Shown piece after piece: positions 1 to 37,831 of a stretch of 51,251 nucleotides of DNA. A program made the position numbers and the translations under genes. Each line of letters begins with the position of its first letter. The stretch's first letter is position 1. This DNA is from an uncultured Candidatus Saccharibacteria bacterium (GTDB lineage: Bacteria > Patescibacteriota > Minisyncoccia > Phycocordibacterales > JACOZG01), in NCBI GenBank assembly GCA_964546425.1, contig CAZJJW010000001.1:1-51251 (forward strand), read 5' to 3'. The notes beneath the pieces were generated by a model. The model was not told where the DNA came from and ran no database searches. It saw only the letters and a program-made list of their open reading frames with translations.

Positions 1-63
1 ATCCACAGTTTTGACCATTTATTTGACGGGTCTTTTCTGTCTCTTTGAAGTGCTCACAAGCTG

Positions 64-134
64 TGCGGGTAGGGAGAATCGAACTCCCGCCTTAACATTG
101 GCAATGTTATGTCCTACCACTAAACGATACCCGC
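64..134 (-). tRNA. tRNA-Gly (anticodon GCC)
   Basis: Minus-strand cloverleaf read by eye: acceptor GCGGGTA/TACCCGC, D-arm GTTT-AGTGGTA-GGAC, anticodon arm TAACA-TTGCCAA-TGTTA, T-arm GGGAG-TTCGATT-CTCCC, discriminator A. 3' CCA is not encoded. Confidence 0.85.
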
Positions 135-806
135 ATTATGATACTTTTCTCTCGCCAAATCATTGGCTAACATCTTTATCCAAATCAATATTTTGCGCTT
201 CAAGTATGCACTGGAAACGACAACATTGCAAACACCGAATGGCAACCTCTTATTTGCACTTTTGCCGGTAATGACCATAGTCTTATTGAAATCCCCATCA
301 TTTAATCCGATCTCTTTAGCCCAATATTCTAGGCACGCTTTGGGGTCCAGGTCTGGATAAATCAGTAGCCAAGCTTTAATTCTGGGCCGGTCAAAGTTAC
401 AGATATTGCGTAGGAATTGTAAAAATATCTTGATCATCAGTGGGTCGGTATTGGCGATACCGCAATGGTATTTAGAGGTTTTATTGCCCTCTCCCCAATA
501 AATCATAAGGCCGGCGATAAAAAGCGGGTGGTACTTCAGAAGGGCAAATTCCTCAACCGCTTCGTCTTCCGCTTCCTCGTAGGCACGGCGTAGATGCTCT
601 CCGCGAATTCGATTGAGCTCTCTCAACCTTATCTTATTTTGGCTTTCCAGTTTCTTGGCTAAATCGATGGCAATTTTGTTAGACCAACCTTCGTTTTGAA
701 ACCAAGCGGAAAGGGTGCTTTTGGGGACCCGGAGTTCCGCTCTTATTTCATTGTAGCTCTTCCCCAGTTTCCTTAATTTTATGGCTCCATTTTTATCCTT
801 TCGCAT
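120..806 (-). CDS. HTH-domain protein with LAGLIDADG-like homing-endonuclease core (hypothetical)
   Basis: ORF 120..869 trimmed to the ATG at 806 (MRKDKNG...). N-terminal HTH-like KLGKSYNEIRAELRVPKSTLSAWF. FIAGLMIYWGEGNK plus the following ...GIANTDPLMIKIFLQFLRNI resembles a LAGLIDADG block. Visibly AT-rich. The last 5 codons lie inside tRNA-Gly. Confidence 0.45.
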   Translation of the reverse strand: MRKDKNGAIKLRKLGKSYNEIRAELRVPKSTLSAWFQNEGWSNKIAIDLAKKLESQNKIRLRELNRIRGEHLRRAYEEAEDEAVEEFALLKYHPLFIAGLMIYWGEGNKTSKYHCGIANTDPLMIKIFLQFLRNICNFDRPRIKAWLLIYPDLDPKACLEYWAKEIGLNDGDFNKTMVITGKSANKRLPFGVCNVVVSSAYLKRKILIWIKMLANDLAREKYHNAGIV

Positions 807-886
807 ACTGTATAAATATACTACAATGATACAGAAATAAGAAGGGGGTATAAAACAAAAAGAAATCATGATATTGTAAAGTCATA

Positions 887-958
887 GCTCCTGTGGTGAA
901 ATGGATATCACAACAGTCTTCGGAACTGTCGTTGGGGGTTCGAATCCCTCCGGGAGCA
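887..958 (+). tRNA. tRNA-Arg (anticodon TCG)
   Basis: Cloverleaf read by eye: acceptor GCTCCTG/CGGGAGC (one G-U), D-arm GTGA-AATGGATA-TCAC, anticodon arm ACAGT-CTTCGGA-ACTGT, T-arm GGGGG-TTCGAAT-CCCTC, discriminator A. No encoded CCA. Confidence 0.85.
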
Positions 959-968
959 CACACTAGAT

Positions 969-2435
969 ATGAAGCGACAAATCCCCATCGAAGTTTCACA
1001 AGTAACCGAAATCTTGCAAAAAGCTGGTTTTTCGGCCTATTTGGTCGGCGGCTGTGTTCGTAACTTGTTACTCGATGCTAAACCACGAGACTGGGACATC
1101 ACGACTAACGCCAAACCGGAGCAAATTACCTCCCTCTTCGCCAAAACTTTTTATGAAAATGAGTTTGGCACCGTGACCATTGTTAGTGAAGAAACAACCG
1201 ATGAGACTCTTAGAAATGTCGAGGTCACTCCTTTTCGAACCGAGACGACCTATTCTGACAAAAGACACCCGGACCAAGTAAAGTTCGGCGACAAGCTTGA
1301 AGATGATCTTAAGCGGCGCGACTTCACGATTAACGCTTTGGCCTATAACCCGGCTCAAGGACAACTCGTTGATCTTTTTGGTGGTGAAAAAGATTTAAAG
1401 GACAAATTAATTAAGGCGGTAGGCAATCCGGATGAGAGGTTTAGCGAGGATCCACTAAGAATGTTGCGGGCGATTAGATTAGCGGCCGAACTTGGTTTCA
1501 CGATTAACAGCGAGACAGCCCAAGCCATCCAAAATAAGGCCGACTTAATCAAAGTTGTTTCTAAGGAACGGATTAGAGATGAGTTCAGCAAAATAATTTT
1601 GTCGAAAAACCCAATGATTGGCTTGATTCTGGCTCATAAATTAAGTATTTTGGCTCATTTTCTTCCTGAATTAGAAGAGGGTGTGGGTATGAAACAAACC
1701 AAAGAACACAAGTATGCTGTCTTTGAGCACACTATACGGGTAGTTCAACATTCGGCAGACAGAGATTATAAGTTTCACGTGAGACTGGCGGCATTATTCC
1801 ATGATGTGGGCAAACCACGAACCCGAGCTTGGAGTCCGGAGAAGGGTGATTGGACTTTCTATGGTCACGATATCGTGGGCGCCCGAATGACCCAAGAGAT
1901 CCTAAATCGGCTGAAGTTCCCCAAAAAAACCATCGAAATAGTCGTGAAACTAGTGAGAAACCATATGTTTTTTACTGATATTGAGCGGATTACATTATCG
2001 GCCGTCCGGCGAATCATCAGAAACGTGGGACCGGAGCACATTTGGGAGCTAATGGAAGTTCGGCGCTGTGATCGAATCGGCATGGGCCGACCCAAAGAAA
2101 GTCCCTACCGACTCCGCAAGTACGAGTCAATGATTGAAGAAGCTCTACGGAGTCCAACCTCTGTTGGAATGCTAAAAATTACTGGTAATGATGTTATTCG
2201 TGAAACCAAGCTGAATCCGGGGCCCAAAATCGGCCATATTTTGCATGTTCTCCTAGAAGAAGTCTTAGAAAAACCAGAGCTGAACGAGGGGGCCTACCTA
2301 ATTAGCCAAGCTAAAGAGCTGGCTAAACTGGAAGAAGGTGAGTTGAAAACGTTGGGCGAGAAAGGCAAAGAAAAAAAAGAAGAAACCGAGCAAGCCGAGC
2401 TAGAAAAGATTCGGTCCAAGTTTCATGTGAAATAA
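969..2435 (+). CDS. cca: CCA-adding tRNA nucleotidyltransferase with HD domain
   Basis: N-terminal pol-beta NTase signature YLVGGCVRNLLL...DWDITT, RRDFTINA motif, HD-domain LFHDVGK. 488 aa. Starts 10 nt after tRNA-Arg. Confidence 0.85.
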   Translation: MKRQIPIEVSQVTEILQKAGFSAYLVGGCVRNLLLDAKPRDWDITTNAKPEQITSLFAKTFYENEFGTVTIVSEETTDETLRNVEVTPFRTETTYSDKRHPDQVKFGDKLEDDLKRRDFTINALAYNPAQGQLVDLFGGEKDLKDKLIKAVGNPDERFSEDPLRMLRAIRLAAELGFTINSETAQAIQNKADLIKVVSKERIRDEFSKIILSKNPMIGLILAHKLSILAHFLPELEEGVGMKQTKEHKYAVFEHTIRVVQHSADRDYKFHVRLAALFHDVGKPRTRAWSPEKGDWTFYGHDIVGARMTQEILNRLKFPKKTIEIVVKLVRNHMFFTDIERITLSAVRRIIRNVGPEHIWELMEVRRCDRIGMGRPKESPYRLRKYESMIEEALRSPTSVGMLKITGNDVIRETKLNPGPKIGHILHVLLEEVLEKPELNEGAYLISQAKELAKLEEGELKTLGEKGKEKKEETEQAELEKIRSKFHVK

Positions 2436-2555: not shown

Positions 2556-3497
2556 TCAACTGTGGATAACTCGAGGACGGCGGTCGTGGAAATTTTTGTG
2601 GATATCTTTTAACTGGCGGTCGGTGATGTGGGTATAAACTTGGGTTGTAGAAATATTGGCATGACCCAACATCATCTGGACCGAACGGATATCGGCGCCG
2701 TTTTCTAGCAAATCAGTGGCAAAACTATGGCGCAAGGTGTGCGGCGTTACCTTCCTGGTGATTCCGGCTTTGATGGCCCAAAACTTAATGATTCGTTCAA
2801 TGCTCCGAGGTGAGAGGCGGGCCGGTTCGCCCCGAGAAACGTTGACAAATAGGGCTTCATGGACATCTTGACGTTTATCTAAGTAGGTTTTGAGGACTTT
2901 TTTCGCTGACGTTGATATGAAAACCAACCGGATTTTCTCGCCCTTACCCCGCACTGAAAATTCGTCTTTTTTAAGATCGACGGTGTCTCGATCAAGGGCG
3001 CAAAGCTCGGAGACGCGCAAGCCGGTCGAGAAGAGGAGTTCAAGAATCGCTTTGTCGCGAAGCGCCTTCTCTTCGGCGCCCGTTGGCGCCTCGAGCAAGC
3101 GGGTCAATTCATCTTGACTGATTAAATCAAGCTCGCGGCTGCCGGTTTTAGCCAATTCAATCCGATTGGCGGGCAAGGTTTCCACCCCGCGCTTCTCTAA
3201 ATATTTCAAAAAGGTGCGCAGGGCAATCAGGTGGTAATTCTGGGTATTTTTCTTCAGTTCTTTGCGATTAAGCCAAAGGCGATAACGTCGGACTGATTCG
3301 TCATCAATCTGACCGGGTTTCTTCATCTGGGCAAACCCAAAAAAGCGCCCCAAGTAATAGTCGTAATTGGCCACCGTTTTCAAACTTCGCCCCTTCTCAA
3401 TCTCCAGGTGTTCCAACCACTCCCGCCGCCATTGCTCCAATTCCATGCCTCCATTATACCCCATATTGTGCGACACGAAGGAGTTCTGGTTATCCAC
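2556..3497 (-). CDS. Tyrosine site-specific recombinase, XerC/XerD family
   Basis: C-terminal catalytic region ARLSPRS..., HTLRHSFATDLLENGADIRSVQMMLGHANISTTQVYTHI. Start uncertain: GTG at 3497, or ATG at 3464 or 3446 (MELEQWRREWLEHL...). Confidence 0.85.
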   Translation of the reverse strand: MDNQNSFVSHNMGYNGGMELEQWRREWLEHLEIEKGRSLKTVANYDYYLGRFFGFAQMKKPGQIDDESVRRYRLWLNRKELKKNTQNYHLIALRTFLKYLEKRGVETLPANRIELAKTGSRELDLISQDELTRLLEAPTGAEEKALRDKAILELLFSTGLRVSELCALDRDTVDLKKDEFSVRGKGEKIRLVFISTSAKKVLKTYLDKRQDVHEALFVNVSRGEPARLSPRSIERIIKFWAIKAGITRKVTPHTLRHSFATDLLENGADIRSVQMMLGHANISTTQVYTHITDRQLKDIHKNFHDRRPRVIHS

Positions 3498-3501
3498 TCT
3501 T

Positions 3502-3520
3502 GCGGAGGCTTCGCCTCCGC
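3502..3520. repeat. REP hairpin, family A (GCGGAGGC-TTC-GCCTCCGC)
   Basis: Perfect 8-bp stem with 3-nt loop, 22 nt upstream of the RAYT-like gene start. Confidence 0.8.
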
Positions 3521-3542
3521 CTAGTTGTGGTAAACTAAAAAT

Positions 3543-4247
3543 GTGTCACGGAAACTTAGTTTTGGGGTTGATGAGTTCTACCACCTTTATAATCGAGGTG
3601 GTGATAAGCGACAAATCTTCAATGATCATTCAGACTATGATCGCTTCTTGCGACTGCTCTATTTGTGCAATGATACCAAGCCGGTGGAGTTAAGGCGCTC
3701 GTGGCAAGACCGCGGAGGCGAAGCCTCCGCCGATCAAGAAAGGGAATTGATGGTGGATATCGGGACTTACTGCCTCATGCCCAACCACTTCCACCTCCTT
3801 GTTAAAGAACGAGTAGAGGGAGGCATCAGTATTTTCATGCACAAACTTTCGACCGGCTATTCGATGTATTTCAATCTGAAACACGAAAGAACCGGTTCAC
3901 TATTTGAGGGCGCATTCAAGGCCAAACACATTGATGGGGACGAGTATCTAAAATATAGCTTCGCTTACATCCACCTTAATCCGGTCAAACTAATTAAGCC
4001 AAACTGGCGCGAACAAGGCATCGGCGACACCAAGCAGGTCCACCGTTACTTAGAGAGCTATCCTTATTCGAGTTACAACCATTATGTTACGAACAACAAA
4101 AGTTCCGATCCCATTATTAATCAAGTCGCTTTCCCTGATTACTTTAACCAAAAGGGCGATTTTATCAACTATCTGAATGAGTGGCTAAAATACAACGAGG
4201 ACGAGCCGGCGGCGGAGGCGAAGCCTCCGCGGGCCTTGCTTTTTTAA
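3543..4247 (+). CDS. REP-associated tyrosine transposase-like protein (IS200/IS605-type Y1 transposase fold), copy 1
   Basis: GTG start. HUH motif NHFHLLV; Tyr motif region FAYIHLNPVK. Paralogous to ORF 13450..14109 (shared EFYHLYNRG, TGSLF(E/Q)G). Flanked by and containing family A REP hairpins. Confidence 0.75.
   Translation: MSRKLSFGVDEFYHLYNRGGDKRQIFNDHSDYDRFLRLLYLCNDTKPVELRRSWQDRGGEASADQERELMVDIGTYCLMPNHFHLLVKERVEGGISIFMHKLSTGYSMYFNLKHERTGSLFEGAFKAKHIDGDEYLKYSFAYIHLNPVKLIKPNWREQGIGDTKQVHRYLESYPYSSYNHYVTNNKSSDPIINQVAFPDYFNQKGDFINYLNEWLKYNEDEPAAEAKPPRALLF
3712..3730. repeat. REP hairpin, family A, inverted orientation (loop GAA), inside RAYT-1 ORF
   Basis: GCGGAGGC-GAA-GCCTCCGC, perfect. 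Translated in frame as ...GGEASA... Confidence 0.8.
4212..4230. repeat. REP hairpin, family A (loop GAA), in last codons of RAYT-1
   Basis: GCGGAGGC-GAA-GCCTCCGC, perfect. Encodes ...AEAKPP... near the C-terminus. Confidence 0.8.
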
Positions 4248-4271
4248 GCAAAATATGATACCCTTGACATT

Positions 4272-4496
4272 ATGTTGAAAACCAAGAAAAAGCAGGTGAT
4301 TATTAAGAAGGTCCAAATCCATGCCAAGGATACCGGATCGTCGGCGGTCCAGTTGGCGATTTTGAATGAACGAATCGTCGAGCTCACCAAGCATTTGAAG
4401 AAAAATAAAAAGGACGAGAGTTCGCGGCGCGGACTCTTGAAAATTGTGGCCGAGCGCCGGACGCATCAAAAGTATTTAGCCGCTAAAAAGAAGTAA
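4272..4496 (+). CDS. rpsO: 30S ribosomal protein S15 (short form, 74 aa)
   Basis: [44 protein letters not shown] matches the conserved S15 core. The C-terminus is shorter than classical S15. The stop overlaps the next start (TAATG). Confidence 0.8.
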
Positions 4497-13095: not shown

Positions 13096-13410
13096 TTGAA
13101 ACATATGTCGTTATGGTTTTGTCCGCCATTATGTTTGGCGCTTGTTTGTTCCCATTACATTTACCGTTTTCTTCTTGTCCTTTCTGGTATTTGGGACGAT
13201 CAAGATTACTTTGGCGACGTTAGAAAGAAAGTTGACTGGCTTTCTAAAATTAACGAGCTGGCTCTCTATAACTACATGATCTCGTTTATCTATTCGCTAA
13301 TTACCGGAAATTGGTTAGTCTTTTTGGTTGTCTTTATCACCACCAGTTCCTACGACCTGGTGAAATATAGTTTCCACCAACTGGGCTATTACAAAAATGT
13401 CTCGCCATAA
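13096..13410 (+). CDS. Hypothetical small membrane protein
   Basis: AT-rich ORF with hydrophobic segments. TTG at 13096 or ATG at 13105. The stop is immediately followed by a REP-B hairpin. Confidence 0.3.
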   Translation: MKHMSLWFCPPLCLALVCSHYIYRFLLVLSGIWDDQDYFGDVRKKVDWLSKINELALYNYMISFIYSLITGNWLVFLVVFITTSSYDLVKYSFHQLGYYKNVSP

Positions 13411-13437
13411 CCACTTGGAGGCTAAGCCTCCAAGTGG
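13411..13437. repeat. REP hairpin, family B (CCACTTGGAGGC-TAA-GCCTCCAAGTGG)
   Basis: Perfect 12-bp stem with 3-nt loop, 12 nt upstream of the RAYT-2 start. Confidence 0.8.
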
Positions 13438-13449
13438 TAGACTGATGCC

Positions 13450-14109
13450 ATGCGTAAAGTTGAGTTCGCTAACAACGAGTTTTACCATCTCTACAATCGT
13501 GGCGTTGATAAGAGAAATATCTTCGGCGAAAAGAAAGATGTTGACCGTTTTCTGCAAAGTCTCAAAGAATTCAACACCATTGAACCGATCGGCAGTATTT
13601 TTGAGCAATCGTTTTCCAAAACCATCTCTCAATCAGAAAAGAAGCTGGTAGAATTCGTGTGCTACGCGCTAAACCACAACCACTACCATCTTTTGGTCAG
13701 ACAAGTTTCCGACCAGGGAATCGAGAAGTTTATGCATCGTCTCTCGACTGGCTACACCAGATATTTCAATGACAGAAACCAGAGAACGGGGTCTTTGTTT
13801 CAAGGCCCCTACCAAGCTCGTTATGTTGACTCCAACGAATACCTCCTGCACCTAAGCGTTTACATCAACCTAAATGACATCGCCCATGGCGTAAACCAAC
13901 TTGGAGGCTTAGCCTCCAAGTTGGGAAGAACTAGTTGGGGGGAATTTACCTTACCGACAACAAGACCGGCTTTATGTCAGAAGGATATTATTTTAGGCCA
14001 GTTTGGAAACATTCAAGAATATAAGGACTTTGCCAAAGAGGCACTGGTTGGTATCCAAGAACAGAAATTATTAGCCAAGGAGCTCGAGGGTTTAGAACTT
14101 GGAGGCTAA
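13450..14109 (+). CDS. REP-associated tyrosine transposase-like protein, copy 2
   Basis: HUH motif NHYHLLV; Y region SVYINLND. Paralog of 3543..4247. Bracketed by and containing family B REP hairpins. Confidence 0.7.
   Translation: MRKVEFANNEFYHLYNRGVDKRNIFGEKKDVDRFLQSLKEFNTIEPIGSIFEQSFSKTISQSEKKLVEFVCYALNHNHYHLLVRQVSDQGIEKFMHRLSTGYTRYFNDRNQRTGSLFQGPYQARYVDSNEYLLHLSVYINLNDIAHGVNQLGGLASKLGRTSWGEFTLPTTRPALCQKDIILGQFGNIQEYKDFAKEALVGIQEQKLLAKELEGLELGG
13896..13924. repeat. REP hairpin, family B, inverted orientation (loop TTA), inside RAYT-2 ORF
   Basis: CCAACTTGGAGGC-TTA-GCCTCCAAGTTGG, a 13-bp perfect stem. Encodes ...NQLGGLASKLG... Confidence 0.8.
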
Positions 14110-14119
14110 GCCTCCAAGT
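14097..14119. repeat. REP hairpin, family B; loop TAA is the RAYT-2 stop codon
   Basis: ACTTGGAGGC-TAA-GCCTCCAAGT, a 10-bp perfect stem. TAA at 14107-14109 ends ORF 13450..14109. Confidence 0.8.
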
Positions 14120-14124
14120 AGAAT

Positions 14125-14904
14125 ATGCGGGCGAAAAAATCATTGGGGCAGCATTGGTTGCGGTCGGGGAGCGCCCGGCAGGCGATAATTGAGGCCGCGG
14201 GGCTAAGCGACCCCACTTCGCCAAGGCTTCGCGGGGCGACCACTACTGTGGTCGAGATCGGGCCCGGAGAAGGATTCTTGACCGAAACGTTGTTAGAAAC
14301 CGGCGTCAAAGTGGTCGCGGTTGAAAAAGATGATCGGTTGATTGAAGTTTTACAAGCAAAATTTAAAAAAGAAATTCTAGATGGCCAACTAGAATTGAGG
14401 CACGTGGATATTTTGGACTTCGACTATAACCTACTCCCCAAAACCTATTCCCTCGTCGCCAACATTCCTTACTACATCACCGGCGCGGTGATCAAAAAAT
14501 TTTTAACATCAGAAAATCAACCCCAAGCGATGACGCTTCTGGTTCAAAAAGAGGTCGCGGAGAGAATCGCGCGCGAGAAAAAAGAATCTCTTTTATCAAT
14601 CTCGGTCAAAGTTTATGGCCAGCCGAAATATATTAAGACTGTTCCCGCCGGCGCCTTCGCGCCGGCGCCCAAAGTTGATTCAGCAATTCTCTCAATCACC
14701 AATATTTCACGCCAGAATTTTGAAAATGTCAGTGAAGAAAAATTTTTCGCTATTTTAAAGCGCGGTTTTGCCCACAAACGCAAATTACTCAAAAGCAATC
14801 TCAGCTGTTCGGCGGAAGTCTTGGCGAATTGTCATATCAACGAGCAAGCGCGCGCCGAAAATTTAACTTTAGACCAATGGCTTTGTCTTTGCAAAAACTG
14901 CTAA
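14125..14904 (+). CDS. rsmA: 16S rRNA (adenine1518/1519-N6)-dimethyltransferase
   Basis: KKSLGQHWL, SAM motif VVEIGPGEGFLT, ANIPYYITG. Extra segment SDPTSPRLRGATT before the SAM motif. Confidence 0.85.
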   Translation: MRAKKSLGQHWLRSGSARQAIIEAAGLSDPTSPRLRGATTTVVEIGPGEGFLTETLLETGVKVVAVEKDDRLIEVLQAKFKKEILDGQLELRHVDILDFDYNLLPKTYSLVANIPYYITGAVIKKFLTSENQPQAMTLLVQKEVAERIAREKKESLLSISVKVYGQPKYIKTVPAGAFAPAPKVDSAILSITNISRQNFENVSEEKFFAILKRGFAHKRKLLKSNLSCSAEVLANCHINEQARAENLTLDQWLCLCKNC

Positions 14905-15353
14905 TCACTCTGTTGGCCAGTCTCGCCGTGCTTGTTGGCTTACACCCAACGGAGGCGAAGCCTCCGCCGAGCGGAGGCTTCGCCTCCGTTGTGATTGGCG
15001 ACACCACCATTAAGCTTGAGCTCGCCCGGACGCCAGCCGAGCAAACCCAAGGTTTGTCAGACCGAACATCACTTGACGAGCGGGCCGGAATGCTTTTTGT
15101 CTTCCCGGCCGACCAAATTCCGGCCTTTTGGATGAAGGAGATGCGCTTCCCAATTGATATCATTTGGCTCAACGTCGACGGGCAAATTGTTGACATTACT
15201 CCCAACCTCGCCCCAAGCACTTTTCCGCAAACTTTTTCGCCAAAAATCCCAATTCGCTATGTCTTAGAGGTGAATGCCGGCTTCGCCGGCCGCCATGACC
15301 TGAAAATCGGCGATTTTATCCACTTTTCGGGTGTTCCGGGGCTACAAAATTAA
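14877..15353 (+). CDS. DUF192-family secreted protein
   Basis: ORF 14829..15353 trimmed to ATG 14877 (MALSLQKLLITLLASLAVLVGL signal/anchor). GMLFVFP...FWMKEMRFPIDIIWL...YVLEVNAG is the DUF192 pattern. Confidence 0.65.
   Translation: MALSLQKLLITLLASLAVLVGLHPTEAKPPPSGGFASVVIGDTTIKLELARTPAEQTQGLSDRTSLDERAGMLFVFPADQIPAFWMKEMRFPIDIIWLNVDGQIVDITPNLAPSTFPQTFSPKIPIRYVLEVNAGFAGRHDLKIGDFIHFSGVPGLQN
14948..14990. repeat. REPIN-like doublet of two inverted family A REPs, in frame inside the DUF192 gene
   Basis: AACGGAGGCGAAGCCTCCG-CCGA-GCGGAGGCTTCGCCTCCGTT. Two hairpins in opposite orientation form a larger near-palindrome. Translated as TEAKPPPSGGFASV. Confidence 0.8.
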
Positions 15354-19076: not shown

Positions 19077-21346
19077 AAGAGCTCATATATAAAATTATAC
19101 TAGTCTTAATAGTTGGAGCGCTGTTTCTTCCTCACGTGGTAAAAGCGCAAGATGGTTTTGACGTTGACCCCAGTACAAAGCGGGCGGAGATGATTGATGG
19201 CCTGATCCGTGACGCTAACCTAAGGGGCGCACCGGAAGGAGAACTGGCTTGGTTGCATGTACTGCGGGCAGGATATTTGACGGGGGTCTACGACTCGAAC
19301 GCCCCCTTTCCACCTCCTGCCGAGGATCAAACTGGAATACCAGAACAAATTAAGATCGAGCAAGAAATTCTAAAGCGTTGGACCGCCGACTACCGAGGAG
19401 CTTCTGATTACAATGTGGTTTTGAATGCGATCGGCATCAGGGATAACAATCTAAACAAACTTCTGGATCCTAACAGTAACGATCAGTCCAACGCCGACAG
19501 GGCCATTAGAGAGCAATTTGCAAATCAAACAAAACTCGACCCGTCTACCATCGAGTGCGGGGGCTGGCTCCTGCCTGGCGGCTGCGACATTCTCAAGGCC
19601 GGAATTATCTTCGTCAATAAATTTGTCGAACCGACAGTCAGAAATCTTCTTTTAGACGGCGCCAACTGGATCTTCAACAAGGTTGTCAACGAGTCGGTAA
19701 GAAACTTTAGCGATTATGGCAAAGCTAACGGGGTCCAACTCGCTTGGGCGATGTCTCGCGATATCGTGAATGTCGCTTTGATTTTCTTCCTCCTCTATAT
19801 CGCCATCGGCACTATTCTGGGTTTCTTCGAGGGCAAGCGGCTCTTGGTCGCCATTGTCATCGCCGCGCTGTTGGTCAATTTCAGCGCCTTCTTCACTAAT
19901 ATTCTGATCGACGCCAGCAACATCGCCGCCAACCAGTTCTATAATCTAGCCGGCGGTGGGGCCACTACCGCCTCGGGGGCGCCAGACATTGGCACCCGCT
20001 TAGTATCAGCCACCGCCATTGATGCCCGCGACTTCGCTCTAGCAACGGCCGGCGCTGACCCCATCTCTAAACTCTCGGCCATCTTTGTCCAAGATGTTGG
20101 CCATATCATTCTCTATGTCATCACCGCCGTGGTCCTATTTGCGGCCGTGGCAATGTTTTTTGTCCGGATGATTACGCTCATTATCTTAATCATTATTTCT
20201 CCCTTTGCTTTCCTTTTCTTCACTTTGCCAAAAACTAAGGGCTACGCCGACCAATGGTTAAAAAGTCTCCTCAACCAAATACTTTTTGCCCCGATCTTCC
20301 TTTTCTTTTTTGCCGTCACGATAACGATTGCGAGTCAGAACGGCTTTCAACAAATGCAGCGGGGGAATGGCTCCGAAGGTTATATTGGATTCTTCTCGAT
20401 GCTGATTTACGTCATCTTGATTAATGGGATGATGGTCGGCGCGCTCCTGATTGCTAAACAGTTTGGCGCCGCCGGCGCCGGCGCGGCGATGAAAGGCCTC
20501 AAATCATATGGACTAGGTGCGGCTGGTGGGGCGACGGTTGGTTTGGCTGGTCGTTTGGGCCGAACTAGTCTTGGTCGGGGAGCCAGCGCCTGGGCTGACT
20601 CAAAGAAACTGGAGGCCAGAGCGGCGCAGGGTGGAGCTAAGGGTTGGTTTGCCAGGCAACAACTTAGAACCTTGCGTGGCGTTGCCGGTGCCAGTTTTGA
20701 CGCTCGAGCCACCAAAGCCGGGCAGGCGGCGGGCCTCGGCACCCTGGGCAAGGCCGGCGGCAAAGGTGGCTATGGAGCTCAGTTGAAAGAACAAGTGAAG
20801 GAGCGAGAAGAATTTACTAAGGGTTGGAGCGAGGAGAATAAAGCACAATACGCCGAGAACTTAGCTAAACGCCCAGGCATTCTCCGCGGCCGATTTGGCG
20901 GTCAAGCGCCACGGAAAAACCGAATAGCCGCTGAAAACATCAGCCAGGCAAAAGAACGAGCCGCGATCAACCTTCACAACGAGAGAATTGACCGAGAGAT
21001 CGAGCAACAAAAAGTGGTTTTGGACTTCGAAACCAAAAAACAGGAAACTTCTCGTTACAAAGCCGAGGTGCAGGTCGCCGAGCAGGCTCTGGCAACCGCG
21101 ACCGTTAGCGGCAACCCGGAGCTGGTGGCCAAATATACCAATGCCCTAACTGACGCCAGAACCAAAATGAACAACGCCAATCGAGAGTACGACGCGGTTC
21201 AAGCAGAGATTAAAAAGACAGAGGAGAAGAAGCGCACCTTCAAGAAAAGAGAGAAAAGTGTTGGGGAACAAGTCGCGGAGGCGCTGCAAAAAACTCAAGG
21301 AGGTGGTCGAGGAAGCCCGCCGACGCCACCGCCAGCCACACCATAA
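19073..21346 (+). CDS. Polytopic membrane protein, VirB6/TrbL-like, with Gly/Ala-rich and coiled-coil C-terminal tail
   Basis: GTG start overlapping the previous stop (GTGA). Signal/anchor, then at least 5 hydrophobic helices (e.g. VNVALIFFLLYIAIGTILGFF, LLVAIVIAALLVNFSAFFTNILI). Tail AGAGAAMKGLKSYGLGAAGG... then a charged coiled coil and PPTPPPATP. Confidence 0.5.
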   Translation: MKELIYKIILVLIVGALFLPHVVKAQDGFDVDPSTKRAEMIDGLIRDANLRGAPEGELAWLHVLRAGYLTGVYDSNAPFPPPAEDQTGIPEQIKIEQEILKRWTADYRGASDYNVVLNAIGIRDNNLNKLLDPNSNDQSNADRAIREQFANQTKLDPSTIECGGWLLPGGCDILKAGIIFVNKFVEPTVRNLLLDGANWIFNKVVNESVRNFSDYGKANGVQLAWAMSRDIVNVALIFFLLYIAIGTILGFFEGKRLLVAIVIAALLVNFSAFFTNILIDASNIAANQFYNLAGGGATTASGAPDIGTRLVSATAIDARDFALATAGADPISKLSAIFVQDVGHIILYVITAVVLFAAVAMFFVRMITLIILIIISPFAFLFFTLPKTKGYADQWLKSLLNQILFAPIFLFFFAVTITIASQNGFQQMQRGNGSEGYIGFFSMLIYVILINGMMVGALLIAKQFGAAGAGAAMKGLKSYGLGAAGGATVGLAGRLGRTSLGRGASAWADSKKLEARAAQGGAKGWFARQQLRTLRGVAGASFDARATKAGQAAGLGTLGKAGGKGGYGAQLKEQVKEREEFTKGWSEENKAQYAENLAKRPGILRGRFGGQAPRKNRIAAENISQAKERAAINLHNERIDREIEQQKVVLDFETKKQETSRYKAEVQVAEQALATATVSGNPELVAKYTNALTDARTKMNNANREYDAVQAEIKKTEEKKRTFKKREKSVGEQVAEALQKTQGGGRGSPPTPPPATP

Positions 21347-22070: not shown

Positions 22071-22490
22071 ATGGCAAATTTCCAGGTGCCACAATTTATT
22101 GAGATCGAGGATCGGATTTTCGGACCGCTGACCTTCAAGCAGTTCGTCTACTTGGCCGGCGGCGGGGGCGCGGCCTTCATCGAGTGGGTTTATATTCCCG
22201 TCCACTTCATCGCCATAATGTTCATCGCGCCAACCGTCGGCTTGGCTTTGGCGCTGGCCTTCTACAAAATTAATGACCGACCCTTTATTTTGATGATGGA
22301 GTCGGCCTTCCACTATCTGCTCGACCACAAATTGTACATTTGGAAAAAGGTCGAGCCCAAACTTCGCCAAGACGCCGCGGGGCAGATTACCAAGATCACG
22401 CAAGAGCGGGGAATTGCGATTCCTAAATTATCGGAGAGCAAATTGAAAGATTTGTCCTGGAGCTTGGATGTCAGGGAGAAGATCAAATAA
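22071..22490 (+). CDS. PrgI-family (VirB3-like) T4SS membrane protein
   Basis: N-terminus MANFQVPQFIEIEDRIFGPLTFKQFVYLAGGGGAAF followed by two TM helices. This matches the PrgI-family layout normally found upstream of VirB4. Confidence 0.6.
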   Translation: MANFQVPQFIEIEDRIFGPLTFKQFVYLAGGGGAAFIEWVYIPVHFIAIMFIAPTVGLALALAFYKINDRPFILMMESAFHYLLDHKLYIWKKVEPKLRQDAAGQITKITQERGIAIPKLSESKLKDLSWSLDVREKIK

Positions 22491-22501
22491 ATTTGATCTT
22501 C

Positions 22502-22975
22502 AAATCCGAAATTCGAAGTTCTAAATCCTAAATAATATCAAATGGTCGAAACCCAAAGTCCAAAACGATACGATCTTGAAGATAGAACGCTCAAGTTTGC
22601 TGGCGCTGTGAGAATGTTCGTGCAAAAACTGCCAAAAGGTATCAGCAATTTTGAGGACATCAAACAACTGGTTCGATCGTCTGGCTCGGTTGGTGCTAAC
22701 TATATCGAGGCCAACGAAGCCCTAAGCAAAAAAGATTTCCTCATGAGAATCAAGATTTGTCGCAAAGAAGCCAAAGAAACCGGCTTCTGGCTCAAACTGC
22801 TCCAGGTTGGCGAAACGGGGCCGGTTGATAAGGAAAGATCCAAATTATTAAACGAAGCGGGCGAGTTAATGAAAATATTTGGAGCGATATTAGCTAAATC
22901 CGAAACAAATTAAAATGTTTAGGGCATTAAAAAATTGGAATTTGGGATTTGTTTGGGATTTCGATATTCGGATTT
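22502..22975 (+). mobile_element. IVS-type cassette: four-helix-bundle gene enclosed by imperfect inverted-repeat arms
   Basis: The left arm 22502-22541 (AAATCCGAA ATTCGAAG TTCTAAATCCTAAAT...) pairs in blocks with the right arm 22939-22975 (9 bp, 7 bp and 11 bp helices read by eye). Confidence 0.55.
22542..22913 (+). CDS. Four-helix-bundle protein (23S rRNA intervening-sequence protein family)
   Basis: RYDLEDRTLKFAGAVRMF..., VRSSGSVGANYIEANEALSKKDFLMRIKICRKEAKETGFWLKLL is the family signature. Confidence 0.75.
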   Translation: MVETQSPKRYDLEDRTLKFAGAVRMFVQKLPKGISNFEDIKQLVRSSGSVGANYIEANEALSKKDFLMRIKICRKEAKETGFWLKLLQVGETGPVDKERSKLLNEAGELMKIFGAILAKSETN

Positions 22976-23002
22976 CGGGCTTAAGTGGTCTAGAATTAAT
23001 AT

Positions 23003-23647
23003 ATGACTAAAACTGCCAGCCAAACCACTCAAGAATTCGTCCCGATTCAGGCCATCCGCGATGGCGTGGTGGTGCTTAAGACTGGCGGCTTGCGCTTGGT
23101 TCTCATTGTCTCCTCGATTAACTTCGCCCTCAAATCTGAGGATGAGCAGACGGCAATTTTGCTCCAATTCCAAAACTTTCTTAATTCGCTCGACTTCCAC
23201 GTCCAACTTTTTGTCGAATCGCGCCGACTCGATATCCGGCCCTATCTGCGAACGCTTGAAGAACGGTTGGTGGCTCAAACTAACGACTTAATGAAGGTCC
23301 AAACCAGAGAATACATCGAGTTCATTAAAAAGTTCACCGAGACAACCGACATCATGTCGAAAAGCTTCTTTGTGGTTATCCCCTACGCGCCGGCGCTGAT
23401 CCAGGTAGGCAAAAGGGGCGGCCTGCTGTCTCGGGTCATGGGGGGCAAGCGCACCGCCGCCGAGGTTAAAACCGATGATCAAGCCGAGTTTGAGGAACAA
23501 CGGACGCAACTCGAACAGCGGGGGAGCGTGATTGAGCAAGGATTCGCGCGGCTTGGCTTGCGGGTGTTGCAACTCGGGACCGAGGAATTGGTCGAACTTT
23601 ATTTCAAGATTTTTAATCCCGGCGAGACTGACATCCCGAGCATTTAA
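23003..23647 (+). CDS. T4SS-associated protein resembling a stand-alone VirB4/TrbE N-terminal domain
   Basis: FVPIQAIRDGVVVLKTGGLRLVLIVSSINFALKSEDEQTAILLQFQNFLNSLDFHVQLFVESRR resembles the N-domain pattern of VirB4-type ATPases. There is no Walker motif. Confidence 0.4.
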   Translation: MTKTASQTTQEFVPIQAIRDGVVVLKTGGLRLVLIVSSINFALKSEDEQTAILLQFQNFLNSLDFHVQLFVESRRLDIRPYLRTLEERLVAQTNDLMKVQTREYIEFIKKFTETTDIMSKSFFVVIPYAPALIQVGKRGGLLSRVMGGKRTAAEVKTDDQAEFEEQRTQLEQRGSVIEQGFARLGLRVLQLGTEELVELYFKIFNPGETDIPSI

Positions 23648-23970
23648 ATCCGAAGCACTAAATCCGAAATCCTAAATAATATCAAATGGTCGAAACCCAA
23701 AGTCCAAAACGATACGATCTTGAAGATAGAACGCTCAAGTTTGCTGGCGCTGTGAGAATGTTCGTGCAAAAACTGCCAAAAGGTATCAGCAATATCGAGG
23801 CCAACGAAGCCCTAAGCAAAAAAGATTTCCTCAATCAGTAAATCTTAAATTCGAAGCACCAAATCCTAAACAATACCAAATGCCCAAAATTACAAACTCA
23901 AAACCGTTTTGGATTTCAAACATTAAGATTTTGAATTTGTTTGGGGTTTCGATATTAGGATTTCGGGCTT
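23648..23970 (+). repeat. Decayed second copy of the IVS-type cassette (arms plus gene remnant plus nested extra left arm)
   Basis: Left-arm CCGAAATCCTAA at 23664-23675 pairs perfectly with TTAGGATTTCGG at 23955-23966. 23842-23885 carries another left-arm-like segment ending in ATG. Confidence 0.55.
23686..23841 (+). pseudogene. Truncated four-helix-bundle gene (51 codons)
   Basis: Identical to 22542-22649, then a 54-nt in-frame deletion, then identical to 22704-22743, then a divergent ATCAGTAA stop. Confidence 0.75.
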
Positions 23971-24003
23971 ACATCTCTCGGGTTTCGAGTTTATAATATA
24001 ATT

Positions 24004-37657: not shown

Positions 37658-37831
37658 ACAACTGAATATGGCCTAAACCTCGCCACTGGCGAGGCATGGC
37701 ATGAAATCGCGACGAACATGGAAAACCCATCATTAGGGCGTTCGTCGCGTTATATCGGGAAACCGGTATAGGACCGCAAGGTCTCCTAGTGGTGGGCTTT
37801 CTGCCGCTAGGGCGTATCAAGCGCGACGGAT
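37658..37831 (+). ncRNA. Candidate structured leader or ncRNA (five consecutive hairpins) upstream of the methyltransferase
   Basis: Hairpins at 37678-37694, 37708-37749 (10-bp stem), 37751-37770 (8 bp, GAAA loop), 37771-37784 (GCAA loop) and 37785-37811 (8 bp). Class unknown. Confidence 0.35.

What the first reader, a model, noticed from the sequence alone, without database searches (positions are those of the whole stretch)
3502..4247. RAYT-like transposase 1 is bracketed by, and carries in frame, its own REP hairpin (family A)
Seen in sequence: the perfect hairpin GCGGAGGC-TTC-GCCTCCGC lies at 3502-3520, 22 nt upstream of the GTG start. The same element in the opposite orientation (loop GAA) lies at 3712-3730 inside the ORF (read as GGEASA) and at 4212-4230 in the last codons (AEAKPP). 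The ORF has HUH (NHFHLLV) and Tyr (YIHLNP) motifs of IS200/IS605-type Y1 transposases. A single-copy Y1 transposase flanked by inverted REPs is the REP-associated tyrosine transposase (RAYT) arrangement established mainly in Proteobacteria. This gene context looks like a reduced CPR-type genome, where I am not aware of REP/RAYT systems being characterised. The element is also tolerated as coding sequence.
Basis: partly seen in the sequence, partly recalled or inferred. Interest (0 to 1): 0.7.

Follow-up and report, generated by a model that had tools for sequence, protein, structure and literature searches.

The report
RAYT-like nuclease genes with own hairpins
A small Patescibacteria (CPR) genome carries two tyrosine-nuclease genes of the REP-associated (RAYT) type, each bracketed by and containing in frame its own DNA hairpin, and the same layout recurs in most of about 80 sampled relatives of a family of thousands, a group where such systems had not been described.

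Summary
GGAGGC-N3-GCCTCC occurs 8 times in the window (0 expected). Three copies sit around and inside Y1 gene 1 (3543-4247). Three sit around and inside a 45%-identical paralogue (13450-14109). Two form an inverted doublet in frame in a DUF192 gene.

Both proteins are class-2 HUH/Y1 enzymes (NHFH, YIHLNP). The best fold match is E. coli TnpAREP bound to a REP hairpin. No IS200 signature or TnpB was found.

In 80 homologue loci, the region upstream of the start and the region at the stop share a locus-specific word of at least 12 nt in 61/76 loci, against 3.5% for mismatched loci. About a quarter carry a third copy at +146..+187, nearly always in one reading frame. Hairpins track the protein tree and were replaced together at an orthologous locus.

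All keep AGG-N5-CCT at the stem top and lack the canonical GT[AG]G foot. Extra copies are few. Syntenic relatives without the gene lack the hairpins.

Verdict: a REPtron-like RAYT/REP system in Patescibacteria. It is a new variant of a known kind, because in-frame own-REP insertion is already known in RAYT subclass 2.4. Genome-wide copy number and enzyme activity remain untested.

The parts
3502..3520 (.). Family-A hairpin GCGGAGGC-TTC-GCCTCCGC, upstream copy, ending 22 nt before the start of Y1 gene 1
   Evidence: The equivalent copy is centred at a median of -44 from the start in homologue loci.
3528..3536 (+). Extended -10-like motif TGgTAAACT, 6 nt before the GTG start. This suggests a leaderless or near-leaderless transcript (inferred).
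   Evidence: Read. TGnTAnnnT lies within 30 nt of the start in 48/81 loci against 6/81 shuffled, with a 6-7 nt gap in 35 of them. It is conserved in the orthologous loci L006 and L150. The standard -35/-10 scan did not call it.
3543..4247 (+). Y1 (HUH/Tyr) gene 1, 234 aa, RAYT-like. Motifs NHFHLLV and YIHLNP.
3712..3730 (.). Family-A hairpin (loop GAA) in frame inside gene 1, residues 57-62 (GGEASA), in a low-confidence surface loop
   Evidence: Residues 55-58 have pLDDT below 50. The same site (+146..+187) is occupied in 19 loci and the same frame in 17 of them.
4212..4230 (.). Family-A hairpin (loop GAA) in the last codons of gene 1 (AEAKPP), in the disordered C-terminal tail
   Evidence: Residues 222-234 have pLDDT below 50. 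The 3' copy overlaps the stop in 21 copies, follows it in 28 and lies inside the CDS in 6.
13410..13438 (.). Family-B hairpin ACCACTTGGAGGC-TAA-GCCTCCAAGTGGT (13-bp stem), upstream of Y1 gene 2
13450..14109 (+). Y1 gene 2, 219 aa. A paralogue 45% identical to gene 1 over the catalytic core, with a different C-terminal part. Motifs NHYHLLV and YINLND.
   Evidence: It has its own subfamily of at least 2280 Patescibacteria proteins.
13896..13924 (.). Family-B hairpin (loop TTA) in frame inside gene 2 (NQLGGLASKLG), at +446
   Evidence: The same position is occupied in subfamily members L233 (+443), L250 (+435) and L251 (+446).
14097..14119 (.). Family-B hairpin whose loop TAA is the stop codon of gene 2. 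It ends 5 nt before the ksgA start.
14947..14991 (.). Inverted doublet of the family-A hairpin (REPIN-like, 45 nt = 15 codons), in frame after the signal anchor of a DUF192 protein (PTEAKPPPSGGFASV)
   Evidence: (I21)
14211..14236 (.). Tentative decayed hairpin remnant in the N-terminal loop of KsgA. The syntenic relative L006 has a perfect copy at the same place.
   Evidence: This feature is weak, because the palindrome is only imperfect.

Best explanation
This is a REPtron-like system. A domesticated or semi-domesticated class-2 Y1 (HUH/tyrosine) single-strand DNA nuclease-transposase of the RAYT type is paired with its own cognate DNA hairpins.

Inferred mechanism, by analogy with E. coli TnpAREP and IS608 TnpA:
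- The enzyme binds the hairpin when the DNA is single-stranded, for example on the lagging-strand template.
- It reads the invariant AGG-N5-CCT top of the stem.
- It cuts nearby through a 5'-phosphotyrosine intermediate and rejoins the strand.
- This copies or replaces hairpins, singly or as inverted doublets, at new and existing sites.

What is shown:
- The enzyme class.
- The stereotyped layout: hairpin, then an extended -10 motif, then an ORF that is probably leaderless, then a hairpin at the stop.
- A third in-frame copy in a disordered loop in about a quarter of loci.
- The locus-specific match between copies, and the co-variation of hairpin with protein clade.
- The joint replacement of all three copies at an orthologous locus.
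- Sparse extra copies in intergenic DNA and in loops of housekeeping proteins.

What is inferred:
- That the protein makes and renews the hairpins.
- That the in-frame copies persist because they fall in disordered segments.
- That the upstream copy, which lies over the -20 to -45 region of the promoter, may also serve as an operator.
For: - **Statistics.** 8 exact hairpins against 0 expected.
- **Enzyme class.** Pfam Y1_Tnp for both genes. NCBIfam REP_Tyr_transpos is the only transposase model hit. The best Foldseek match is 4er8_A, TnpAREP with a REP hairpin (E 3.4e-5, TM 0.62 on the target). IS608 and ISDra2 TnpA score 100-1000 times worse. The HUH and Y motifs align with E. coli RayT. The motifs NH[YF]H, FQ/FE and Y[IV]HLNP match the class-2 table of PMC6006769.
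- **Family-wide layout.** Upstream and stop regions share a word of at least 12 nt in 61/76 loci against 3.5% for mismatched loci. An internal copy of at least 14 nt occurs in 20/76 against 1.5%. Positions are -44, +146..+187 in one frame, and the stop.
- **Co-variation.** The hairpin arm follows the protein clade. At the orthologous xerC|Y1|rpsO locus, CGGAGGC (window, L006) is replaced by CCAAGGT (L150) at all three places. There is a compensated A:T to G:C pair between window gene 2 and L233.
- **Negative control.** Syntenic relatives L229 and L232 have no Y1 gene and no such hairpins in 20 kb.
- **Dispersal.** A doublet in DUF192. Three extra copies in L006. Thirteen 'far' copies in the homologue loci, where about 0.001 per 20 kb is expected. 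Six mostly intergenic copies in 20 kb of L231, next to a gene-2-type Y1.
- **Not IS-like.** The paralogues are 45% identical. Identical proteins P0263 and P0060 were read on 24 contigs each, and every place shown had the same neighbouring genes. ORFs are intact in 80/81 loci.
- **Tolerated in frame.** The coded peptides fall in segments with pLDDT below 50.
Against: - The canonical REP mark is absent: GT[AG]G at the stem foot in 0/302 arms.
- The copy number away from the genes is low here: one extra site in about 50 kb.
- The RAYT equivalog score is not reached: 37.6 against 80 bits.
- A sequence profile found no PDB relative.
- Presence is patchy among close syntenic relatives, and most homologues sit in other contexts. 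The gene-plus-hairpin unit is therefore gained and lost, which fits a mobile unit as well as a vertically kept one.
- The motifs resemble subclass 2.1, for which PMC6006769 reports no REPs.
- No activity data exist.
Confidence: 0.74

Rival explanations
1. It is an autonomous minimal IS of the IS200 type. The two outer hairpins are the left and right subterminal ends, and the whole 0.75-kb unit (hairpin, gene, hairpin) transposes by single-strand 'peel and paste'. Solo hairpins and doublets are footprints or MITE-like derivatives.
For: - Hairpins sit at both edges of the gene in most loci.
- Homologues lie in many different contexts. Only L006 and L150 share gene 1's site, and only L187 and L231 share gene 2's.
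- Close syntenic relatives lack the gene.
- In L231 the hairpin starts 9 nt after the uvrD stop, whereas in L229 and L232 ksgA directly follows uvrD. The hairpin therefore marks the edge of the extra DNA.
- Several paralogues occur per genome segment: two in the window, two in L233, three in L250.
Against: - No near-identical copies were seen, and the paralogues in the window are 45% identical.
- Identical proteins were always shown in one context, with 24 contigs read for each.
- The tyrosine motif is Y---NP, not the Y---Q of IS200 TnpA. The protein is 220-235 aa with a C-terminal domain, not about 150 aa (table from PMC6006769).
- No NCBIfam IS200 model was hit.
- There is no TnpB.
- The gene stays at one site while the neighbours diverge to 60-80% amino-acid identity.
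- Loop orientation of the two outer copies is 18 same, 23 inverted and 9 other, unlike the fixed same-strand ends of IS200/IS605.
Confidence: 0.13
2. The hairpins are cis-regulatory structures of the gene itself (operator, attenuator, mRNA stabiliser or terminator). They are kept by selection and are not mobile. Copies elsewhere are unrelated or serve host regulation.
For: - The positions are fixed relative to the promoter-like extended -10 motif, one coding loop and the stop codon.
- All three copies change together at an orthologous locus. This is what selection for recognition by one protein would give.
Against: - The identical hairpin lies in frame inside unrelated genes (DUF192 in the window, KsgA and an unknown ORF in L006) and as inverted doublets.
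- L231 has six copies between other genes.
- The internal copy is present in only about 26% of loci.
- None of the three copies at gene 1 scores as an intrinsic terminator (0 found).
- The upstream copy appears to lie outside the transcript.
Confidence: 0.1
3. The palindromes arise by chance or from sequence composition, for example from GC-rich codon patterns.
For: The same 19-mer occurs singly in many unrelated high-GC genomes.
Against: The window shows 0 expected against 8 observed. The hairpins are locus-specific and co-vary in 61/76 loci against 3.5% for mismatched pairs. The window is 50% GC.
Confidence: 0.01

Closest known systems
REPtron: RAYT / TnpAREP with flanking REPs (E. coli rayT, Pseudomonas RAYTs; PMC2817692, PMC3116915, PMC3333891, PMC3479197)
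   Same: - A class-2 HUH/Y1 enzyme with the Y---NP motif.
- The gene is flanked by its own hairpins.
- Each paralogue has its own hairpin type.
- Inverted doublets (REPIN-like) occur.
- Gene copy number is low and the copies are diverged.
- The best fold match is 4er8.
   Different: - There is no GT[AG]G foot (0/302). The conserved part is the stem top, AGG-N5-CCT.
- The WQ residues that PMC6006769 links to GTAG recognition are F-E/Q here.
- Dispersed copies are few (tens per genome at most, by extrapolation) rather than hundreds.
- The host is Patescibacteria with about 1 Mb genomes, whereas PMC6006769 found non-IS Y1 genes enriched in large genomes.
- Several paralogues can occur per 10-20 kb.
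TnpAY1 subclass 2.4 (Bertels group 4; Cyanobacteria, Bacteroidetes): REPs inserted in frame inside tnpAREP (PMC6006769)
   Same: The gene's own REP lies inside the gene without breaking the frame, in a peripheral loop.
   Different: [quoted passage not shown]
- Here the gene-1 type carries its copy before the HuH strand, at one conserved position and frame. The gene-2 type carries it after the Y motif.
- The motifs differ: WQ and YIxNNP there, F[EQ] and YIHLNP here.
TnpAY1 subclass 2.1 / Bertels group 1 / TIRYT (PMC6006769, PMC5581495, PMC3733652)
   Same: The motif set is NH[YF]H, FQ and Y[IV]HLNP. The length is about 238 aa with a C-terminal extension.
   Different: Subclass 2.1 was reported to have no REP-like sequences nearby, and some members have long terminal inverted repeats. 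Here hairpins are the rule. Membership was judged from motifs only and was not tested by phylogeny.
IS200/IS605 TnpA (IS608, ISDra2)
   Same: It has the HUH/Y1 fold, subterminal hairpins at both ends of a short unit, and single-strand DNA chemistry.
   Different: - IS200 TnpA has the Y---Q motif.
- It is about 150 aa.
- It occurs as many near-identical copies.
- It is often accompanied by TnpB.
- Its ends have a fixed same-strand orientation.

None of these is seen here.
Rickettsia palindromic elements (RPE) and intragenic REPs (PMC3733652)
   Same: Palindromic repeats are inserted in frame in housekeeping genes and tolerated in loops or termini. A REP can supply a stop codon.
   Different: RPEs are 100-150 bp and no cognate enzyme gene is known for them. 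Here the units are 17-45 nt and sit next to a cognate Y1 gene.

Membership tests
RAYT / TnpAREP (class-2 TnpAY1) | HUH motif and a single catalytic Tyr in a Y---NP motif | tested here: met
   The motifs are NHFHLLV and YIHLNP. They align to PEHMHCI and YIYINPVK of E. coli RayT. The ORF hits Pfam Y1_Tnp at E 5e-8.
RAYT / TnpAREP (class-2 TnpAY1) | Reaches the curated NCBIfam equivalog score (NF047646, 80 bits) | tested here: not met
   Gene 1 scores 37.6 bits and gene 2 scores 23.6 bits. It is the only transposase model hit, but below the cut-off.
RAYT / TnpAREP (class-2 TnpAY1) | Fold closest to TnpAREP rather than IS200-type TnpA | tested here: met
   4er8_A scores E 3.4e-5 with probability 1.00. 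The best IS608 or ISDra2 entries score E 5e-3 to 5e-2. The model has pLDDT 80.9.
RAYT / TnpAREP (class-2 TnpAY1) | Gene flanked by its own cognate palindromes (REPtron) | tested here: met
   Seen in the window. Seen in 61/76 homologue loci against 3.5% of mismatched pairs.
RAYT / TnpAREP (class-2 TnpAY1) | REPs carry a 5' GT[AG]G tetranucleotide at the stem foot | tested here: not met
   Found at 0/302 feet. Within the arms it occurs in 2.6% against 9% after shuffling.
RAYT / TnpAREP (class-2 TnpAY1) | Cognate REPs dispersed in many copies through extragenic DNA | tested here: inconclusive
   The window has one extra site (a doublet) in about 50 kb. There are 13 far copies in the homologue loci and six in 20 kb of L231. 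The whole genome was not available.
RAYT / TnpAREP (class-2 TnpAY1) | Low copy number, diverged paralogues, same site within a lineage | tested here: met
   The paralogues are 45% identical. Identical proteins were always shown in one context. The site is shared with L006 and L150. However, the gene is absent from L229, L231 and L232 at that site.
RAYT / TnpAREP (class-2 TnpAY1) | Cleaves and rejoins its REP as single-stranded DNA | not testable with these tools
   This needs purified protein and oligonucleotides.
IS200/IS605 TnpA (subclass 1.1) | Y---Q tyrosine motif and a core-only protein of about 150 aa | tested here: not met
   The motif is YIHLNP. The proteins are 234 and 219 aa. No IS200 model was hit in NCBIfam at E <= 0.01.
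IS200/IS605 TnpA (subclass 1.1) | Several near-identical copies per genome, often with tnpB | tested here: not met
   The two copies are 45% identical. The neighbours are xerC, rpsO, ksgA and a small ORF, with no TnpB.
TnpAY1 subclass 2.1 | Motifs NH[YF]H, FQ and Y[IV]HLNP with a C-terminal extension | tested here: met
   by motif comparison only.
TnpAY1 subclass 2.1 | Groups with reference 2.1 sequences in a tree, with no REPs nearby | not tested
   No reference set was at hand. The 'no REP' property is contradicted here.

The most novel reading that the evidence does not exclude
Patescibacteria hold a very large, undescribed branch of RAYT-like systems with a REP grammar of their own. In the gene-1 type the stem top AGG-N5-CCT is fixed and the foot is free. 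In the gene-2 type the foot A(C/T)TTGG is fixed and the top is free. The nuclease gene keeps cognate hairpins at fixed places: over its promoter, in frame in one loop, and at its stop codon. These copies are renewed in concert with the enzyme's specificity. That would mean the enzyme continually acts on its own gene, either for self-regulation or for hairpin replacement. These units would then be living intermediates between mobile IS200-type elements and domesticated RAYTs, thriving in about 1 Mb genomes.
Probability: 0.35. Interest if true: 0.78.

Novelty: new variant of a known kind. Interest (0 to 1): 0.62.

Why it matters
REP/RAYT systems are the best-studied case of a domesticated transposase that maintains a population of short DNA hairpins. 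They are known mostly from Proteobacteria, Cyanobacteria and Bacteroidetes, and have been linked to large genomes (PMC6006769).

This finding shows the same logic in ultra-small Patescibacteria genomes, in a family of thousands of members. Three features stand out:
- A different recognition mark (AGG-N5-CCT instead of GTAG).
- Several paralogues per genome.
- Hairpin copies at fixed in-frame positions that change together with the flanking copies.

This gives a natural data set of protein-hairpin co-variation for working out how Y1 enzymes read their hairpins. It also gives a clean test of whether such enzymes renew their own sites.

It has practical consequences too. The hairpins add peptides to housekeeping proteins (KsgA, DUF192). 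They also coincide with contig breaks and synteny changes in CPR assemblies.

Tried and rejected
1. **Genome-wide count.** I scanned genome contigs with GCGGAGGCNNNGCCTCCGC. Nearly all were single hits in unrelated genomes with a median GC of 64%, and none lay next to a Y1 gene.
2. **Viral contigs.** The same pattern in viral contigs gave 20 single hits, which is background.
3. **Solo hairpin at an empty site.** I thought the solo hairpin in L006 at 19384-19404 might mark the 'empty site' of gene 2. Alignment showed it lies inside the ksgA coding region, so it is a separate in-frame insertion.
4. **PDB sequence search.** A sequence profile against PDB found nothing at E <= 1. Only the fold search was informative.
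5. **Terminators.** I asked whether the hairpins could be intrinsic terminators. No terminator-like site was found in 3350-4350.
6. **Known RNA families.** Rfam reports only two tRNAs and a LOOT RNA elsewhere in the window.
7. **Orthology of gene 2 and the L187 Y1.** Both lie before ksgA, but the L187 protein is of the gene-1 type and gene 2 belongs to another subfamily.
8. **Fixed inverted orientation of the outer copies.** This is the arrangement described for REPtrons, but loop orientation here is 18 same, 23 inverted and 9 other.
Full report
**1. The observation**

The sequence is as described. The perfect hairpin GCGGAGGC-TTC-GCCTCCGC lies at 3502-3520, and its last base is 22 nt before the GTG of ORF 3543-4247. 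The same stem with loop GAA lies at 3712-3730 and at 4212-4230 inside that ORF, where it is read as RGGEASA and AAEAKPP.

The core GGAGGC-N3-GCCTCC occurs 8 times in the 51,251 bases. The mean of 100 dinucleotide-preserving shuffles is 0.00. Perfect hairpins with stems of at least 7 bp are in general about three times more frequent than in a first-order Markov simulation: 52 entries against 15.6 +/- 3.5.

The other five copies were not in the finding:
- Three belong to a second variant, ACTTGGAGGC-TAA/TTA-GCCTCCAAGT. They sit at 13410-13438, 13896-13924 and 14097-14119, around and inside a second Y1 gene (13450-14109).
- Two form a 45-nt inverted doublet at 14947-14991. It lies in frame in the N-terminal linker of a DUF192 protein.
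- In gene 2 the loop TAA of the last hairpin is the stop codon.

**2. The proteins**

- Both ORFs hit Pfam Y1_Tnp, at E 5.4e-8 and 1.7e-7.
- In NCBIfam the only transposase model hit is REP_Tyr_transpos. The scores are 37.6 and 23.6 bits, below the 80-bit cut-off. No IS200 model was hit.
- The two proteins are 45% identical over the catalytic core and differ in the C-terminal part.
- The motifs are NHFH/NHYH, F-E/Q and YIHLNP. These are the class-2 (RAYT) signature 'Y---NP' in the classification of Quentin et al. They are closest to the motif set listed for subclass 2.1 (PMC6006769).
- An AlphaFold model built on 21 homologues has mean pLDDT 80.9.
- Its best match in the PDB is 4er8_A, E. coli TnpAREP bound to a REP hairpin (E 3.4e-5, probability 1.00). 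IS608, ISDra2 and Sulfolobus TnpA follow at E 5e-3 to 5e-2.
- A profile of the family aligns its HUH and Tyr motifs with those of E. coli RayT. The WQ pair of RayT, which PMC6006769 associates with GTAG recognition, is F-E/Q here.
- The peptides coded by the two in-frame hairpins of gene 1 fall in the only segments with pLDDT below 50: residues 55-58 and 222-234.

**3. How common the family is**

Gene 1 has more than 6,000 relatives at E <= 1e-5 among 90%-identity clusters. All the named ones are Patescibacteria/Parcubacteria 'transposases'. Gene 2 has its own subfamily of at least 2,280. Some of these are labelled by JGI 'REP element-mobilizing transposase RayT', which I take to be an automated COG-derived label. 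The exact protein is on NCBI assembly GCA_016181425.1 and in several groundwater read sets.

**4. The comparative test**

I fetched 80 homologue loci from metagenomes and searched them for perfect hairpins.
- In most loci the gene is bracketed by a hairpin specific to that locus. Examples are CCAAGGT-CGG-ACCTTGG, ATCAAGGC-GGC-GCCTTGAT and TACAAGGT-TCA-ACCTTGTA.
- The 130 nt before the start and the region around the stop share a word of at least 12 nt, in either orientation, in 61/76 loci. The figure is 3.5% for 600 mismatched locus pairs. For words of at least 16 nt the figures are 59% against 0.5%.
- An internal copy of at least 14 nt is present in 20/76 loci against 1.5%.
- The upstream copy is centred at a median of -44 from the start, with an interquartile range of -48 to -36.
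- Internal copies cluster at +146..+187 in 19 loci. In 17 of them the loop triplet is a codon, which gives x-Gly-loop-(Ser/Thr/Ala/Pro)-(Leu/Phe).
- The 3' copy overlaps the stop codon in 21 cases, follows it in 28 and lies inside the coding region in 6.
- These counts use perfect stems and so underestimate the true number. For example, P0060 has an imperfect REPIN-like doublet that the scan missed.

**5. What is conserved in the hairpin**

Aligned on the loop, A-G-G is 97-100% invariant next to a 5-nt central region (AGG-N5-CCT). The outer two bases of that region usually pair. The lower stem varies freely. The canonical REP mark GT[AG]G is absent at the stem foot (0/302). Within the arms it is rarer than after shuffling.

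The gene-2 subfamily follows another rule in the few loci examined: window gene 2, L233, L250, L251 and the gene-2-like L231.
- The foot A(C/T)TTGG is kept and the top varies.
- Copies sit at about -40, +435..+446 and the stop. L251 also has one at +169.
- Window family B (ACTT-GGAGGC) fits both rules.
- Between window gene 2 and L233 the hairpin differs by one compensated pair, A:T to G:C, at both gene positions.

**6. Co-evolution and inheritance**

- In a rough neighbour-joining tree, related proteins have related hairpin arms. The internal copy is confined to some clades.
- The arrangement xerC(-) | Y1 | rpsO | NYN of gene 1 is shared by L006 (Y1 53% identical, NYN 80%, S15 73%, XerC 67%) and by L150.
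- Alignments show orthologous flanks and hairpins at the same three places. The hairpin is CGGAGGC in the window and L006 but CCAAGGT in L150. The three copies have therefore been replaced or have evolved together.
- Identical proteins P0263 and P0060 were read on 24 contigs each from many samples, and every place shown had the same neighbouring genes.
- The ORFs are intact in 80 of 81 loci.
- On the other hand, only a few homologues share either window context.
- Syntenic relatives found through the neighbouring NYN protein lack the gene at the xerC-rpsO site: L229, L231 and L232, with NYN 80-87% identical. Two of them also lack gene 2.
- The unit is therefore gained or lost on a longer time scale.
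- Several paralogues per short segment are common: two in the window, two in L233 and three in 20 kb of L250.

**7. Copies away from the genes**

- L006 has three more copies within 20 kb. One is in frame in KsgA (GGGLASA), at a place where the window has only an imperfect palindrome.
- The homologue loci hold 13 'far' copies, where about 0.001 per 20 kb would be expected by chance.
- L231 has six copies of ATTTGGACAC-N3-GTGTCCAAAT in 20 kb. One is 16 nt before its gene-2-like Y1. The others are mostly between convergent genes, which is the classical REP location.
- L229 and L232, which have no Y1 in 20 kb, have no such hairpin family.
- L230 has one solo AGG-type hairpin between uvrD and ksgA.

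Hairpin presence therefore follows gene presence. The density in the window itself is low: one extra site in about 50 kb.

**8. Anatomy of the unit**

An extended -10 motif (TGnTAnnnT) lies within 30 nt of the start in 48/81 loci, against 6/81 after shuffling. In 35 of those it ends 6-7 nt before the start codon, so the transcript is probably leaderless. In the window it is TGgTAAACT at 3528-3536.

The upstream hairpin then covers roughly -20 to -45 of the promoter and lies outside the transcript. This is an inference. The standard -35/-10 scan does not call a promoter there, and it finds no terminator-like site at any of the three hairpins.

**9. Interpretation**

The best reading is a REPtron-like RAYT/REP system, with confidence about 0.74. 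The enzyme class, the cognate flanking hairpins, one hairpin type per paralogue, REPIN-like doublets, intragenic in-frame copies and diverged low-copy genes all match what is known for RAYTs (PMC2817692, PMC3116915, PMC3333891, PMC6006769). That the enzyme cuts and rejoins the hairpins is inferred from homology, not shown.

The main rival is an autonomous IS200-like unit, at about 0.13. It is supported by the patchy presence and by the hairpins marking the edges of the extra DNA. It is opposed by the motif class, by the lack of near-identical copies and by one context per identical protein.

A purely regulatory role, at about 0.10, does not explain the copies inside unrelated genes.

**10. Comparison with the literature**

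- In-frame REP insertion inside tnpAREP is already described for subclass 2.4 (Cyanobacteria, Bacteroidetes).
- REPs inside other genes, and REPs supplying stop codons, are described by Di Nocera et al..
- Several things appear new:
  - The host group. No paper in the searchable library links REP/RAYT/REPIN with Patescibacteria or CPR.
  - The non-GTAG grammar.
  - The fixed position and frame of the internal copy, and its concerted change with the flanks.
  - The abundance of paralogues in about 1 Mb genomes. PMC6006769 found non-IS Y1 genes enriched in large genomes, and reported no REPs for the motif-similar subclass 2.1.

I therefore rate the finding as a new variant of a known kind.

**11. 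Unexplained**

- Copy-specific palindromic extension. 23/153 copies have at least 3 extra paired bp beyond what they share with any sister copy, where 2.4 are expected. 10 have at least 5, where 0.15 are expected.
- Loop orientation of the upstream and downstream copies is 18 same, 23 inverted and 9 other.

**12. Limits**

- The rest of the source genome could not be scanned.
- The tree is a simple distance tree.
- Some metagenome loci are close relatives of each other, so the counts are not fully independent.
- No experiment supports the proposed activity.

Noticed in passing
window 37670-37784 (+): LOOT RNA (Rfam RF03000), 81.7 bits against a gathering score of 46.4.
   Followed up: no
window 22071-25815: Type IV secretion-like genes are interrupted here. 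They are PrgI (22071-22490) and a TraG/VirB4-like ATPase (24004-25815). Between them lie a 23S_rRNA_IVP (four-helix-bundle) gene at 22542-22913 and a truncated second copy at 23686-23841. Direct repeats at 22499-22664 and 23643-23808 are 92% identical.
   Followed up: partly
window 14211-14236; L006 19384-19404: The KsgA N-terminal loop carries 7-9 extra residues in the window and in L006 compared with L187 and L175. L006 has a perfect hairpin there (GGGLASA). The window has only an imperfect palindrome, possibly a decayed copy.
   Followed up: partly
L242-L248 (contigs carrying P0060), last 260 bases: Assemblies from different samples end or diverge about 45 nt after the REPIN-like doublet downstream of the Y1 gene. 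This suggests a rearrangement or assembly break point at the repeat.
   Followed up: no
L250 1-574, 10001-10654, 19996-20654; L233 1-377 and 6001-6648: L250 has three Y1 genes within 20 kb, and L233 has two within 6 kb. Each has a different hairpin type.
   Followed up: partly
L249 20267-20355 and 18189-18211: Three different hairpin types (ACTTGGACGT..., ACTTAGTGG..., ACTTGGGGGT...) lie side by side, like a BIME cluster.
   Followed up: no
L231 2990-3070, 14444-14468, 16419-16443, 16987-17005, 20294-20316: Six copies of ATTTGGACAC-N3-GTGTCCAAAT occur in 20 kb of a syntenic relative. Most lie between convergent genes, and one lies just before a gene-2-like Y1 gene that follows uvrD.
   Followed up: partly
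window 64-134 (-), 887-958 (+): Two tRNA genes lie near the left end of the window.
   Followed up: no
window 1-1013 versus L001: NCBI contig JACOZI010000003.1 ends 2,529 bases upstream of gene 1, whereas the window extends 3,542 bases upstream. The window therefore comes from a longer or different assembly of the same locus.
   Followed up: no
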